From contig JAFCFX010000003.1 of assembly GCA_017608405.1 (NCBI GenBank), positions 1-51,799 of the forward strand: 51,799 bases of DNA, in the 5' to 3' direction. This document shows positions 50,153 through 51,799 of this stretch, piece after piece. Every line of letters begins with the position of its first letter. The first letter of the stretch is position 1. The translations under genes and the position numbers were made by a program. The notes beneath the pieces are model-generated. The model was not told where the DNA came from and made no database searches. It saw only the letters and a list, made by a program, of their open reading frames with translations. This DNA comes from Candidatus Pacearchaeota archaeon (GTDB lineage: Archaea > Nanobdellota > Nanobdellia > Pacearchaeales > GW2011-AR1).

Positions 50153-50392
50153 AAAGACTTGTATACTTGGTGAGACCTGCTCAGTCGCGGTGTCTAAAAC
50201 TCTTTTTCAAGGGAGCTAAGGTCCGTGAAACAGCGGGGGTAACTATGACCCTTAACAGACAGGGGGTCTTTAAATTTGGCTGTATGCTGGAACCTCCCGA
50301 TAAGTCTTTGGTACTCGACGTTTATCGTCAGTAAAAATCCAAAGAATAGGGACAATCAGCAGGAAACCAAGGTTTAAATATTTGACCTTCGT

Positions 50393-50893
50393 ATGAAGGT
50401 CATGAATAAAGAACAATATATCTATTATCTAACAGGATTTATGGATGGAGAGAGTTGCTTTTGTGTTGCTCTTAAAAATCAAAGATCTGCAAAAGTTAGA
50501 TGGGTTCTTGATCCAGTATTTCATGTAACACAACATGCAGTTAACAAAGAGATATTATATGATATCCAAAGATTGTTTAATTGTGGAATTGTTATTAAAA
50601 AATATGGACAACCAGATACAATGCAATTTGTAGTCCAGAGTAGAAAAGAACTCGTAGAAAAAGTTATTCCTTTCTTTAAGAAATATGAACTAATAACAAA
50701 GAAAAAGGATTTTGGAATATTTGCTGAAGTTGTTGAAGATTTAAATCAACACAAGCATAAAGATAAAAAAGAATTTATAAAACTCTTAAAAAAAGTATTT
50801 CAAATGAATGGGGGAGGAAAACAACGAAGATATAAACTTAAAGATGTTCTAGAATCTTTGGGATCCTCAGAGACTATACGCCAAACATCTTAA
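50393..50893 (+). CDS. LAGLIDADG homing endonuclease, single-motif (homodimeric) type
   Basis: YYLTGFMDGESCFCV motif plus VIPFFKKYELITKKKDFGIFAEVVEDLNQHKH, typical of the LAGLIDADG_1 family. Confidence 0.85.
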   Translation: MKVMNKEQYIYYLTGFMDGESCFCVALKNQRSAKVRWVLDPVFHVTQHAVNKEILYDIQRLFNCGIVIKKYGQPDTMQFVVQSRKELVEKVIPFFKKYELITKKKDFGIFAEVVEDLNQHKHKDKKEFIKLLKKVFQMNGGGKQRRYKLKDVLESLGSSETIRQTS

Positions 50894-50974
50894 TTGATGA
50901 AGATATAGTCCGATCTATATGGAGACATATAGAGATTAATAGAAATATTAATCCGCCATTGGATAACCAAAAGA

Positions 50975-51007
50975 TTTATATATACATGATATATACTATG
51001 TATATAT
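50975..51007 (+). promoter_or_regulatory. intron-internal TATA box embedded in a 10-bp perfect inverted repeat (candidate operator)
   Basis: TTTATATA 50975-50982 ends 23 nt before ATG 51006. atatatacat (50978-50987) and atgtatatat (50998-51007) are exact reverse complements. Confidence 0.45.
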
Positions 51008-51179
51008 GAATAAAAGAAGAAAAAAATTGTTAAAAGAATCTATAGAAGTTATGTTTAAGGGAGATATTGAAGAGATAATAGAGAAAAAAACCTCTTCATT
51101 TGGCTCTGGTAGCCATGTAATATTACCTTCAAAACATAAAGGAAAGAAAGTAAAGATAATAATCTATAGAGGAAAGTAA
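51006..51179 (+). CDS. 57-aa SpoVT/AbrB-like (DUF2080-like) small protein inside the 23S intron
   Basis: MNKRRKKLLKESIEVMFKGDIEEIIEKKTSSFGSGSHVILPSKHKGKKVKIIIYRGK*. FG-SGS-HVILP...GKKVKI resembles the AbrB-fold 'putative transposon-encoded' archaeal family; below the ORF-track cut-off. Confidence 0.5.
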   Translation: MNKRRKKLLKESIEVMFKGDIEEIIEKKTSSFGSGSHVILPSKHKGKKVKIIIYRGK

Positions 51180-51183
51180 TAAA

Positions 51184-51357
51184 ATGATAAAAGATGAATT
51201 TTTCGAATATATAAAAGAAGGATTTAGTGCATTTCCTGATTATAGTTCTCTAATCAAAAAAGGATTTTCTAATTTAGAAAAAGATCCTTGGAATTTTAGA
51301 GATGTAATTCGGGCAGCTAAATATTTACCAAAATTAGAGAAAAATTCTGACAAATGA
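51184..51357 (+). CDS. 57-aa hypothetical protein, second gene of the intron mini-cassette
   Basis: MIKDEFFEYIKEGFSAFPDYSSLIKKGFSNLEKDPWNFRDVIRAAKYLPKLEKNSDK*; starts 4 nt after the previous stop; no family recognised. Confidence 0.4.
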   Translation: MIKDEFFEYIKEGFSAFPDYSSLIKKGFSNLEKDPWNFRDVIRAAKYLPKLEKNSDK

Positions 51358-51799
51358 CCTACAATGGTTAGTAACTCTTCGGAGTGAAAGTAACAGAAAT
51401 GCTTAAGGTAGCGCAATACCCTGTCGTATGAATTGCGACTTGCATGAATGGTTTAACGAGGTTGTCACTGTCCCTGATTGGAGCCTTCTGAAAATACCTT
51501 CCGGTGAAAAGGCCGGAGACGCCTAGTGGGAAGCGAAGACCTTGTGGAACTTTACTGCAACTTGTTGTTGTAATCTTAAGAGAAACGCATAGCATAAGTA
51601 GGAGCGTCGAGGCTGTCATTTCGGTGGCAGCGGAGCGAACTTGTAATACTACTCATTTTTCTTAGGATTGCTTACCATTTATGGGACAGCAGCAGGCGGG
51701 CAGTTTGACTGGGGCGGTGCCCTGTCGAAAAAATATCGATAGGACCCAAAGATAAGCTCATCCAGCTTGGAAATCTGGAGTTGAGTGCGAGGGCAAAAG

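What the first reader, a model, noticed from the sequence alone, without database searches (positions are those of the whole stretch)
50253..51401. Oversized 23S rRNA intron carries a homing endonuclease plus a two-gene mini-cassette with its own promoter and operator
**Intron boundaries.** The universal 23S segment taactatgaccct stops at ~50252 and resumes as cttaaggtagcgcaat at ~51402. About 1.15 kb is therefore intervening sequence. My hand alignment to E. coli GGCCGUAACUAUAACGGUCCUAAGGUAGCG places the site at about 1923/1924, at the 3' base of helix 69. ccttaa (50250-50255) can pair with ttaagg (51403-51408) across the two junctions, as a bulge-helix-bulge substrate would need.

**Extra cargo.** Archaeal rRNA introns normally carry only a LAGLIDADG gene, present here at 50393-50893. 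The 3' 40% of this intron also holds two back-to-back 57-codon ORFs (51006-51179 and 51184-51357) that the ORF track missed. The first has an AbrB/SpoVT-like signature (FGSGSHVILPSKHKGKKVKIIIY), the fold used by VapB/MazE-type antitoxins and by archaeal DUF2080 proteins.

**Internal promoter.** A consensus TTTATATA box lies 23 nt before its ATG. The box sits inside a perfect 10-bp inverted repeat (50978-50987 / 50998-51007) that spans the TATA box and the start codon. That layout fits an autoregulated operator.

**Hypotheses.** It could be an addiction or regulatory module hitch-hiking on a homing intron, either stabilising the intron or controlling the endonuclease. Alternatively it could be a second mobile insertion nested in the intron. 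I am not aware of a described archaeal rRNA intron with such cargo.
Basis: partly seen in the sequence, partly recalled or inferred. Interest (0 to 1): 0.7.

Follow-up and report, generated by a model that had tools for sequence, protein, structure and literature searches.

The report
Group I rRNA intron with stowaway gene
The 1.15-kb insert in this archaeal 23S rRNA gene is a self-splicing group I intron, not a protein-spliced archaeal intron. Besides the usual homing endonuclease it carries, in one hairpin loop, a small conserved gene with its own promoter plus an orphan second reading frame, which is unusual cargo for such an intron.

Summary
The insert is 50253-51401 at E. coli 23S position 1923/1924. 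It contains an intact LAGLIDADG gene, two 57-codon ORFs, a TTTATATA box 23 nt before the first ORF, and a perfect 10-bp inverted repeat.

This is a group I intron, not a bulge-helix-bulge (BHB) intron:
- The splice site has a U·G pair in P1, and the intron ends in G51401.
- The conserved Q, R and S core sequence elements are present.
- There is an Rfam Intron_gpI match.
- A P1-P9.3 structure is kept across nine alleles, with 27 compensatory pairs.

About 19 related alleles from DPANN archaea show that the extra 400 nt (50962-51361) is an insertion in the terminal loop of hairpin P9.2.

ORF A is a real gene of the DUF2080 family:
- NCBIfam NF033496 scores 37.6 bits against a cutoff of 22.
- dN/dS is about 0.1.
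- The promoter is conserved.
- Most homologs stand alone in varied chromosomal contexts.
- One independent metagenome contig (L026) carries the same cassette in the same loop of the same intron. That rules out a chimera.

ORF B has no homolog anywhere and is absent from L026. It does have gene-like codon usage and a Shine-Dalgarno-like site.

A toxin-antitoxin role is not supported. This is a new variant of a known kind.

The parts
50253..51401 (+). Group I intron at 23S position L1923 (E. coli numbering), 1149 nt. The first intron base follows U50252 and the last base is G51401.
   Evidence: LSU model positions 2027 and 2028 flank the insert. Rfam Intron_gpI matches 50791-50932 (37.7 bits, E 9e-8). 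Related alleles pass the Rfam gathering score: L026 at 77.2 bits and L043 at 60.4 bits.
50247..50268 (+). P1 helix. The 5' exon GACCCU plus the first intron base (50247-50253) pairs with the internal guide GGGGGUC (50262-50268). The splice-site pair is U50252·G50263.
   Evidence: helix 1: U·G in 9 of 9 alleles and 94% of cells paired. P1 also appears in the minimum-energy fold of the junction.
50275..50367 (+). 5' half of the ribozyme core. It holds P3 5' (50275-50280), P4 (50286-50290 with 50356-50360, carrying the Q element AATCAGCAGG), P5 to P5b (50295-50352) and P6 5' (50361-50363).
   Evidence: Alignment A3 and pair counts. Compensatory changes occur in P3, P4, P5, P5a and P5b.
50373..50893 (+). 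Homing-endonuclease module in the P6 loop. It comprises a TATA-like box TTTAAATA (50373-50380), a hairpin (50383-50402), and a single-motif LAGLIDADG gene (ATG at 50393 or, more likely, 50402; stop at 50891-50893). The 3' end of the gene overlaps P6', P7 and P3'.
   Evidence: Pfam LAGLIDADG_1, E 2e-21. PDB relatives. 64-84% identical genes lie at the same place in L008-L010. Full-length LAGLIDADG ORFs also lie there in L016, L018, L019, L024, L040, L042 and L045.
50865..50954 (+). 3' half of the core. It holds P6' (50865-50867), P7 5' within the R element TCAGAGACTATACG (50872-50876), P3' (50880-50885), P8 (50886-50899), P7 3' within the S element GAAGATATAGTCC (50906-50910), P9 (50914-50933) and P9.1 (50934-50953).
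   Evidence: Rfam alignment. Pair counts. P8, P9 and P9.1 each have compensatory changes.
50955..51368 (+). P9.2 hairpin. The stem is GCCATTG (50955-50961) paired with CAATGGT (51362-51368). The loop is 50962-51361 (400 nt) and holds the cargo.
   Evidence: In other alleles the same stem closes a 4-16 nt loop. The distance from the S element to the 3' splice site is 82-118 nt in them, against about 500 nt here. The stem covaries (helix 12).
50964..51005 (+). Promoter and leader of ORF A. The sequence runs TAACC-AAAAGA (BRE-like), TTTATATA (50975-50982), then a 23-nt TA-rich leader. It includes the 10-bp inverted repeat 50978-50987 / 50998-51007.
   Evidence: The same layout lies upstream of ORF A homologs in L026, L001, L007, L027, L029, L031 and L032. 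DNA homology to the free-standing loci starts at 50964.
51006..51179 (+). ORF A, 57 aa, a DUF2080-family small protein.
   Evidence: NCBIfam NF033496 scores 37.6 bits against a cutoff of 22. An exhaustive search found 116 cluster representatives. 57 of the 62 sequences in alignment A2 hit Pfam DUF2080. Homologs are 65-80% identical. dN/dS is 0.07-0.12. The AF2 model has pLDDT 88.6.
51184..51357 (+). ORF B, 57 aa, an orphan that is probably coding. A Shine-Dalgarno-like GAGGAAAG lies at 51169-51176.
   Evidence: No homolog or family in any search. Codon-usage log-likelihood is 0.468 per codon, the median of true host gene chunks and above all 134 spurious open frames. The Shine-Dalgarno-like site resembles that of the operon-internal gene at 37989. 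The AF2 single-sequence model shows three helices at pLDDT 65.
51374..51401 (+). P9.3 hairpin (ACTC-TTCG-GAGT, 51374-51385) and the conserved 3' tail GAAAGTAACAG...G, ending in the terminal G at 51401.
   Evidence: helix 13 (4 pairs with compensatory change). The tail is invariant in the alignment.

Best explanation
**What it is.** The insert is a mobile group I (IB4-like) self-splicing intron at 23S position L1923 of a DPANN archaeon. The host rRNA is closest to Nanoarchaeota, Pacearchaeota and Woesearchaeota genome bins. The intron is built of three modules.

**Module 1: the ribozyme (P1-P9.3).**
- The guide GGGGGUC pairs with exon GACCCU.
- By analogy with characterised group I introns, an external guanosine attacks after U50252.
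- The terminal G51401 then docks and the exons are ligated, restoring the base of helix 69.

**Module 2: the homing endonuclease.** A single-motif LAGLIDADG gene with its own TATA box sits in the P6 loop. It would cut intron-less 23S alleles, so that the whole intron is copied in.

**Module 3: the cargo.** A 400-nt insertion lies in the terminal loop of the peripheral hairpin P9.2.
- It carries a BRE/TATA promoter driving a nearly leaderless mRNA for a DUF2080-family protein (ORF A).
- ORF A is followed 4 nt later by an orphan ORF B with a Shine-Dalgarno-like site.

**Where the cargo came from.**
- The promoter-plus-ORF A unit is a discrete cassette. It also occurs as a free-standing gene at unrelated chromosomal sites in related archaea.
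- It landed in a loop where extra RNA does not disturb the ribozyme fold. It now rides passively with the intron, inherited with the rRNA gene and co-transferred during homing.
- ORF B was added later in this lineage, or was lost in L026.

**Likely role of ORF A (inference).** I take ORF A to be a small nucleic-acid-binding regulator of its own promoter and of whatever gene lies downstream. It is not an intron-specific factor.

**Shown versus inferred.**
- Shown: the intron type, the structure, the insertion point, the reality and conservation of ORF A, the conserved promoter sequence, and the second independent occurrence.
- Inferred: splicing activity, homing, transcription from the internal promoter, translation of ORF B, and the biochemical role of ORF A.
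For: **Group I identity.**
- Rfam Intron_gpI match with R and S elements.
- Relatives L026 and L043 pass the gathering score.
- A 73-pair P1-P9.3 structure, including the P3/P7 pseudoknot, is 97.1% paired across nine alleles. Slid controls give 33-42%.
- 27 pairs show compensatory change, and 0 of 500 shuffles reach the observed values on four of the five measures; 22 of 500 reach it for further pair types.
- The exon ends in U and the intron ends in G.
- IB4 group I introns at LSU/1923 are already documented in Pacearchaeota and Micrarchaeota (PMC6125680).

**Insertion in the P9.2 loop.** About 19 distinct alleles have a short loop there.

**ORF A is a real gene.**

**The cassette is a discrete unit.**
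- Homology to free-standing loci begins at 50964, just inside the loop, and ends at the ORF A stop.
- The promoter is conserved in eight loci.

**Independent recurrence.** L026, from a different metagenome, has ORF A (80% identical) in the same loop of an allele that has no endonuclease gene and no ORF B.

**ORF B as a coding sequence.** Codon usage and the Shine-Dalgarno-like site.
Against: - There are no expression data. Splicing, internal transcription and translation are all unverified.
- ORF B has no homolog. A 57-codon ATG ORF arises in 6% of shuffles of this segment.
- No terminator was identified after ORF B, so an internal transcript would run into the 3' exon.
- Only two of about 19 alleles carry the cassette, so long-term retention is not shown.
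- The biochemical function of DUF2080 is unknown. The AbrB-like fold was not confirmed.
- The window is a metagenome contig that ends inside the 23S gene, and read-level support could not be checked.
Confidence: 0.8

Rival explanations
1. The cargo is a type II toxin-antitoxin (addiction) module. ORF A would be the DNA-binding antitoxin that represses its own promoter through the inverted repeat. ORF B would be the toxin. Together they would stabilise the intron or the rRNA operon.
For: - A DUF2080 domain was validated as an antitoxin for a nuclease toxin in the NetFlax survey (PMC10440598). It also occurs fused to a MazF-like domain in CalpT.
- The two ORFs are 4 nt apart, in antitoxin-first order.
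- A perfect 10-bp inverted repeat spans the TATA box and the start codon.
Against: - ORF B matches no toxin family or any other protein.
- The PADLOC library finds nothing for either ORF.
- The other intron carrying ORF A lacks ORF B entirely.
- Close ORF A homologs are solitary, or are followed by unrelated genes: a kinase-like gene, a 263-aa unknown, a 61-aa ORF and a nuclease-like ORF.
- More distant DUF2080 genes precede very large unknown proteins.
- The inverted repeat is within chance expectation.
Confidence: 0.08
2. Only ORF A is a gene. ORF B would be a chance open frame in non-coding spacer or decayed sequence between ORF A and the 3' strand of P9.2.
For: - No homolog among 5.8 billion clustered proteins, nor by tblastn of metagenome contigs.
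- Absent from L026.
- 6% of shuffles of the segment give an ORF at least 57 codons long.
- The single-sequence structure model has low confidence, pLDDT 65.
Against: - In-frame codon usage equals the median of real host genes and exceeds all 134 spurious open frames of at least 45 codons. The five other frames score strongly negative.
- A Shine-Dalgarno-like GAGGAAAG lies at -15 to -8, like the host's operon-internal genes.
- The spacing from the ORF A stop is tight, at 4 nt.
Confidence: 0.25
3. The insert is an archaeal bulge-helix-bulge intron, cut by the splicing endonuclease and ligated by RtcB.
For: - The host is an archaeon.
- ccttaa and ttaagg across the two junctions are complementary.
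- Many archaeal rRNA introns with LAGLIDADG genes are of the BHB type (established knowledge; PMC6125680 introduction).
Against: - Folding the two junctions together yields P1 and no helix flanked by two 3-nt bulges.
- The proposed pairing puts the 5' cut inside the helix.
- All group I hallmarks are present and covary.
Confidence: 0.02
4. The region 50962-51361 is an assembly chimera that joins intron sequence to an unrelated chromosomal locus.
For: - The contig is from a metagenome and ends inside the rRNA operon (one search gives a longest contig of 51799, the same as the window length).
- Most ORF A homologs are chromosomal.
Against: - An independent contig from another sample (L026) has the same cassette at the same position in a divergent allele.
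- The cargo is flanked on both sides by the two complementary strands of P9.2. The intron then continues colinearly to the 3' splice site.
- GC content and codon usage match the host.
Confidence: 0.02
5. ORF A works for the intron itself, for example as an RNA chaperone or maturase-like splicing cofactor, or as a regulator of the endonuclease gene.
For: - It has a lysine-rich N-terminal helix and a small beta domain, which suggest nucleic-acid binding.
- It is present in two alleles of the same intron, one of which lacks the endonuclease.
Against: - About 17 of 19 alleles have no such gene and keep the same core.
- Most close homologs lie in loci without any intron.
- No similarity was found between the ORF A promoter region and the endonuclease promoter region.
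Confidence: 0.05

Closest known systems
Archaeal IB4 group I introns at LSU/1923 (Nawrocki, Jones and Eddy 2018, PMC6125680)
   Same: - Same domain of life, same host groups (Pacearchaeota and other DPANN), same insertion site and same ribozyme class.
- Many carry a LAGLIDADG gene.
   Different: In that survey every intron ORF with a Pfam match was a LAGLIDADG endonuclease. Here there is a second loop insertion, with a promoter-driven DUF2080 gene and an orphan ORF.
Chlamydomonas eugametos chloroplast LSU intron 5 encoding I-CeuI (my knowledge of the literature; I-CeuI structure 2ex5 is a hit)
   Same: - Group I intron at the same 23S site (1923).
- It carries a single-motif, homodimer-type LAGLIDADG endonuclease. 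The match to the window's protein is E 3e-15.
   Different: - It is organellar and has no extra cargo.
- Its endonuclease is only distantly related.
Fungal mitochondrial rnl group I intron mL2449 carrying the ribosomal protein gene rps3, often with or fused to a LAGLIDADG gene (my knowledge; 'Ribosomal protein 3/homing endonuclease-like fusion protein' chains appear)
   Same: A non-endonuclease, host-type gene resides in a loop of a group I intron in a large-subunit rRNA gene, alongside a LAGLIDADG endonuclease.
   Different: - There the passenger is an essential ribosomal protein fixed across fungi, with no separate promoter described.
- Here the passenger is a sporadic small gene of unknown function with its own archaeal promoter, found in 2 of about 19 alleles.
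DUF2080 family (Pfam PF09853; NCBIfam NF033496 'DUF2080 family transposase-associated protein')
   Same: - ORF A passes the NCBIfam cutoff and shares the motif E-I-L-x-R/K...F-G-x-G/S-x-H-[VI]-I-L-P-x-K-H-x-G-K-K.
- Like other members, it is a short first gene followed closely by another gene.
   Different: - No transposase is adjacent here or in the 12 related loci inspected.
- ORF A falls just below the Pfam cutoff.
- The N-terminal lysine-rich helix is specific to this subgroup.
rRNA insertion sequences of Candidate Phyla Radiation (CPR) bacteria (PMC11270868)
   Same: - Ultrasmall, reduced-genome organisms with multiple long insertions in rRNA genes.
- Many of these insertions are group I introns with single-domain LAGLIDADG genes. 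A Berkelbacteria endonuclease is 38% identical (L011).
   Different: - They are bacterial.
- 99% of Pfam-annotated ORFs in 23S insertions were endonucleases.
- No DUF2080 cargo was reported.

Membership tests
Group I intron | Conserved catalytic core helices P3-P8, with the P3/P7 pseudoknot and the conserved Q, R and S sequence elements. | tested here: met
   Rfam RF00028 match with R and S. P3, P4, P5, P6, P7 and P8 are each 95.6-100% paired in nine alleles, with compensatory changes in P3, P4, P5 and P8. Relatives pass the gathering score. The window itself scores 37.7 bits, below the 50-bit cutoff, because the 0.5-kb ORF interrupts the model.
Group I intron | P1 formed by an internal guide sequence, with a U·G wobble at the 5' splice site and a terminal G at the intron's 3' end. 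| tested here: met
   U50252·G50263 occurs in 9 of 9 alleles. G51401 precedes the exon C51402.
Group I intron | Self-splicing by two transesterifications started by an external guanosine. | not testable with these tools
   This needs in vitro transcription and a GTP-dependent splicing assay, or RNA-seq of the source sample.
Archaeal bulge-helix-bulge intron | Both splice sites lie in 3-nt bulges separated by a 4-bp helix. | tested here: not met
Minimum-energy folds and cofolds of the joined junctions give P1 and unrelated helices. No BHB forms.
LAGLIDADG homing endonuclease (single-motif, homodimeric type) | One LAGLIDADG_1 domain of about 100 residues with the motif ending in an acidic residue, in an intact ORF of about 160-170 aa. 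| tested here: met
   Pfam E 2e-21 over residues 13-112. The motif reads LTGFMDGES. Lengths of 162-167 aa are conserved in relatives. PDB relatives 3e54, 5gkk and 2ex5 are single-domain proteins. Cleavage activity was not tested.
DUF2080 (PF09853 / NF033496) | A score above the curated family cutoff. | tested here: met
   NCBIfam gives 37.6 bits against a cutoff of 22. Pfam gives 18.9 bits against 21.5, just below cutoff. 57 of the 62 sequences in alignment A2 hit PF09853.
DUF2080 (as 'transposase-associated protein') | Encoded next to a transposase within an insertion sequence. | tested here: not met
   No transposase is adjacent in the window or in L001, L007, L026, L027, L029, L031 or L032-L039. 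A tyrosine recombinase gene lies upstream in L001 only.
AbrB/SpoVT/MazE swapped-hairpin fold | Sequence or structural similarity to solved AbrB-type domains. | tested here: inconclusive
   Foldseek of a confident monomer model finds nothing at E below 1. A PDB profile search finds nothing. hhalign against MazE aligns the expected G-x-S-x-x-V-x-I-P segment, but only at E 0.019 and probability 2.5%. AbrB gives nothing.
Type II toxin-antitoxin module | A conserved two-gene pairing of an antitoxin with a recognisable toxin, co-occurring across genomes. | tested here: not met
   ORF B has no family or homolog. It does not accompany ORF A in any of the nine other loci.

The most novel reading that the evidence does not exclude
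The promoter-plus-DUF2080 unit (TAACC...TTTATATA...ORF A, about 215 bp) may itself be a previously unrecognised miniature mobile cassette in DPANN archaea.
- It would move between intergenic sites and RNA-hairpin-encoding DNA, bringing a portable promoter and regulator to whatever lies downstream.
- It would use mobile group I introns in rRNA genes as vehicles for horizontal spread.
- ORF B would then be a young gene captured or born downstream of that portable promoter.
Probability: 0.15. Interest if true: 0.7.

Novelty: new variant of a known kind. Interest (0 to 1): 0.5.

Why it matters
Group I introns in archaea were recognised only in 2018. The ORFs identified in them so far are homing endonucleases.

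This intron, and a second allele from another sample, show that a peripheral ribozyme loop can also house an ordinary cellular-type gene with its own archaeal promoter. That has three consequences:
- There is a functional RNA polymerase promoter inside a 23S rRNA gene.
- A non-endonuclease gene gains a route to hitch-hike on homing.
- It is a natural example of nested insertions: an ORF inside a cassette, inside a ribozyme loop, inside an rRNA gene.

The finding also gives the uncharacterised DUF2080 family a compact, experimentally tractable context.

Practically, it warns annotators of DPANN genomes that rRNA masking hides real protein genes.

Tried and rejected
**ORF B homolog searches. All were negative.**
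- Pfam, NCBIfam, PHROGs and PADLOC.
- The word-indexed search of 5.8 billion protein clusters.
- A tblastn-confirmed scan of metagenome contigs.
- tblastn against all 45 fetched loci and the window.

**Fold assignment for ORF A. No significant match.**
- Foldseek against the PDB.
- PDB profile searches.
- hhalign against MazE and AbrB.

The AbrB claim is therefore left open rather than accepted.

**Other negative or weak results.**
- BHB folding of the junctions gave nothing.
- The significance test of the inverted repeat showed it is not above chance genome-wide, so I do not use it as evidence for an operator.
- I looked for a second ORF A copy in the window and found none.
- I checked whether L003 had a different upstream context from L001, as a sign of cassette mobility. 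The sequences are identical.
- The MAFFT alignment of the cargo 3' ends of the window and L026 was ambiguous. My manual alignment suggests ORF B was inserted into the last codons of an L026-like ORF A, but this is only tentative.
- I considered that 50894-51401 might hide a short exon, which would mean two introns. I rejected this because the LSU model is continuous across the junction.
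Full report
**1. The observation.**

The window carries an archaeal rRNA operon. The 16S gene is at 45899-47387, and the 23S gene runs from 47804 off the window end.

Re-running the LSU covariance model on sub-ranges fixes the junctions. The 5' exon ends ...GGGGGUAACUAUGACCCU at 50252. The 3' exon begins CUUAAGGUAGCG at 51402, at the very next model position. The insert is therefore 50253-51401 (1149 nt), and no exon sequence is hidden inside it. 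Hand alignment to E. coli GGCCGUAACUAUAACGGU|CCUAAGG puts it between 1923 and 1924.

- The LAGLIDADG ORF at 50393-50893 (Pfam E 2e-21).
- The two 57-codon ORFs.
- The TTTATATA box at 50975-50982, 23 nt before the ATG.
- The perfect 10-bp inverted repeat.

**2. The intron type.**

The sequence says otherwise:
- The 5' exon ends in U and the intron ends in G.
- AATCAGCAGG (50354-50363), TCAGAGACTATACG (from about 50869) and GAAGATATAGTCC (from about 50899) are the classical Q, R and S elements.
- Rfam's group I model matches 50791-50932 at E 9e-8. The score is below the gathering cutoff only because the endonuclease ORF splits the model.

I collected the same intron from about 19 distinct alleles in DPANN genome bins and metagenomes. 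The sources were endonuclease homology and scans for the 3' junction pattern. ORF-less or short alleles pass the Rfam gathering score: L026 at 77.2 bits and L043 at 60.4 bits.

I then aligned nine cores with the cargo removed (A3) and wrote a P1-P9.3 structure that includes the P3/P7 pseudoknot.
- That structure is 97.1% paired, against 33-42% when partners are slid.
- 27 pairs show compensatory change.
- 0 of 500 shuffles reach the observed values on four of the five measures; 22 of 500 reach it for further pair types.
- P1 is GACCCU(U) paired with GGGGGUC, with U50252·G50263 at the splice site in all alleles.

Folding the two junctions together gives P1 and no BHB.

Group I introns of subgroup IB4 at LSU/1923 are already described in Pacearchaeota, Micrarchaeota and other archaea (PMC6125680). 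The host rRNA is 85-94% identical to rRNAs of genome bins labelled Nanoarchaeota, Pacearchaeota or Woesearchaeota.

**3. Where the extra 0.4 kb sits.**

In every other allele, the distance from the S element to the 3' splice site is 82-118 nt. Here it is about 500 nt.

Cargo-less alleles have a small hairpin after P9.1. Examples are CCTTG-TTTAT-CAAGG in L010 and CCATC-AATA-GATGG in L014. The window has GCCATTG (50955-50961) ... CAATGGT (51362-51368), with a 400-nt loop in between.

The stem covaries (helix 12). The cargo is therefore an insertion in the terminal loop of the peripheral helix P9.2, exactly the kind of place where group I introns tolerate extra sequence.

The endonuclease gene occupies a different loop, P6. 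Its last codons overlap P6', P7 and P3', and its stop codon lies in the P8 loop.

**4. ORF A is real.**
- It passes NCBIfam NF033496, 'DUF2080 family transposase-associated protein', at 37.6 bits against a cutoff of 22.
- An exhaustive profile search found 116 cluster representatives.
- 57 of the 62 sequences in alignment A2 hit Pfam DUF2080.
- Close homologs (65-80% identity) exist in eight other loci.
- Against two free-standing homologs, dN/dS is 0.12 and 0.07, with synonymous sites near saturation.
- With the family alignment, AlphaFold gives a confident small alpha/beta model, pLDDT 88.6.
- The model finds no significant PDB neighbour, so the AbrB fold remains a motif-level resemblance.

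**5. The cassette and its promoter.**

Upstream of ORF A homologs, the same TTTATATA-type box recurs 22-24 nt before the ATG. It is followed by a TA-rich leader in every locus. A TAACC-AAA segment precedes the box in four or five of the eight loci.

DNA homology between the window and the free-standing loci starts at 50964, two bases inside the P9.2 loop. It ends at the ORF A stop. Host genes that head operons have similar TATA-like boxes about 28-36 nt upstream of the start codon. The internal promoter is therefore well supported by conservation, although it is not demonstrated experimentally.

The 10-bp inverted repeat is partly conserved; L027 keeps 8 bp of it. In this TA-rich DNA, however, it is within chance expectation.

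**6. A second, independent occurrence.**

The closest ORF A homolog is P0160, at 80% identity. It lies on contig L026 from a different metagenome. Rfam shows that this contig is the 3' part of an archaeal 23S gene with a group I intron.

The sequence shows the same L1923 intron with the ORF A cassette in the same P9.2 loop:

...CCGCCTTTATG[TAACCGAAATGTTTATATA...ORF A...TAACTAG]CATAAAGG...GTAACAGATTG|CTTAAGGTAGCG

That allele has no endonuclease gene, has a long P8 extension, and has no ORF B. This has three consequences:
- It excludes an assembly chimera for the ORF A cassette.
- It shows that the cassette has been transmitted with the intron lineage. The two intron-borne copies group together in a tree built on 55 residues, which is weak support.
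- It shows that ORF B is not part of the conserved unit.

**7. ORF B.**

No homolog or family was found by any route. Several features nevertheless look like a gene:
- In-frame codon usage scores 0.468 per codon. That is the median of real host gene chunks, above all 134 spurious open frames of comparable length. The other five frames are strongly negative.
- GAGGAAAG lies 8-15 nt upstream, like the Shine-Dalgarno sites of the host's operon-internal genes. It is complementary to the 16S 3' end CCUCC.
- A low-confidence model predicts three helices.

I rate ORF B as probably coding (about 0.7) and of unknown function.

A manual comparison of the cargo 3' ends gives L026 TCTACAAATAACTAGCATAAAGG against window TCTGACAAATGACCTACAATGG. 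This hints that the ORF B segment was inserted into the last codons of an L026-like ORF A. The hint is tentative.

**8. Function.**

Close ORF A homologs sit in at least six unrelated contexts:
- Between a tyrosine recombinase gene and rpoH.
- After a DUF357 gene and overlapping a kinase-like gene.
- Before a 263-aa unknown gene and tsaD.
- Convergent with a GINS gene.
- After tRNA genes.
- Overlapping a 61-aa ORF.

More distant DUF2080 genes are first genes that overlap very large unknown genes. No transposase is adjacent in any of them.

The recurring pattern is a short, promoter-proximal gene followed by a variable downstream gene. I therefore favour a small regulator or nucleic-acid-binding protein that travels with its promoter.

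The toxin-antitoxin idea has only literature support, in which DUF2080 acts as an antitoxin domain (PMC10440598). It fails the co-occurrence test.

**9. Comparison and novelty.**

The intron itself is a known kind: an archaeal IB4 group I intron at L1923 with a single-motif LAGLIDADG gene. The same site is used by the chloroplast I-CeuI intron, whose structure 2ex5 is a hit.

Non-endonuclease passengers in rRNA group I introns are known from fungal mitochondria (rps3 in mL2449). They are not reported for archaea:
- In the 2018 survey, all Pfam-matching intron ORFs were LAGLIDADG.
- In CPR bacteria, 99% of Pfam-annotated ORFs in 23S insertions are endonucleases.

A promoter-bearing DUF2080 cassette in P9.2, seen twice, is therefore a new variant of a known kind.

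Related alleles also carry other non-LAGLIDADG ORFs in the P6 loop. This suggests that loop cargo in this intron family is more diverse than has been catalogued.

**10. Verdict.**

- The nested insertion, the promoter and the DUF2080 affinity are correct.
- The BHB intron is wrong.
- The addiction module is unsupported.

Interest is moderate, at 0.5.

Noticed in passing
window 49549-50130: A second insertion in the same 23S gene, 582 nt long, at LSU model position about 1903. It carries a LAGLIDADG_3 ORF (49553-50152). Its two ends pair as a long helix (TGGTTTGAATTG with CAATTCAACCA). No group I signature was found, so its type (BHB-like or other) is unresolved.
   Followed up: partly
window 50373-50404: The endonuclease gene has its own TATA-like box (TTTAAATA, 50373-50380). 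A hairpin TGACCTTC-GTAT-GAAGGTCA covers the annotated ATG at 50393. Relatives lack that ATG and start at the equivalent of 50402. The hairpin covaries between alleles (TAACCTTC with GAGGGTTA in L010), which suggests an RNA structure at the translation start.
   Followed up: partly
L023 and L041 (intron positions about 158-680); L014, L022 and L013 (P6 loops): Other alleles of this L1923 intron carry non-LAGLIDADG ORFs in the P6 loop, each preceded by an AT-rich stretch in which I saw TATA-like boxes by eye.
- L023 and L041 have a conserved 171-174-aa protein with a PD-(D/E)XK-like D...DVK motif (Pfam PDDEXK_14, only E 0.06).
- L022 has an 88-aa ORF.
- L014 has a 63-aa ORF with a hydrophobic C-terminal helix.
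- L013 has a 72-aa ORF.
   Followed up: partly
L033-L039: More distant DUF2080 genes are the first gene of an operon. They overlap or abut large uncharacterised genes of 555, 878 and more than 1400 aa, once through a 51-aa intermediate ORF. None is next to a transposase, despite the family's name.
   Followed up: partly
L040 (DAIQOR010000001.1), L043, L044: The same intron family occurs in genome bins labelled Methanobacteriota and Thermoplasmata, as GC-rich 269-nt ORF-less alleles. It also occurs in one bin labelled 'bacterium', whose 16S and 23S genes are in fact archaeal by Rfam. This implies spread across archaeal phyla and one mislabelled record.
   Followed up: partly
L011 (CAIMEH010000027.1, Candidatus Berkelbacteria): A CPR bacterium encodes a LAGLIDADG protein 38% identical to the window's endonuclease. 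This is consistent with exchange of rRNA-intron endonucleases between DPANN archaea and CPR bacteria.
   Followed up: no
window about 46430-46510 (16S): The 16S rRNA alignment shows a 75-nt stretch where the archaeal model has 32 positions. This is an expansion segment rather than an intron.
   Followed up: no
L031 319-505 and L032 2669-2785: Two free-standing ORF A homologs are followed by other short ORFs that overlap or abut the stop codon. One is a 61-aa ORF. The other is a 37-aa ORF beginning MSTFKLSPSALNLMKECPRCFF, which resembles the N-terminus of PD-(D/E)XK/Cas4-like nucleases. Neither resembles ORF B.
   Followed up: no
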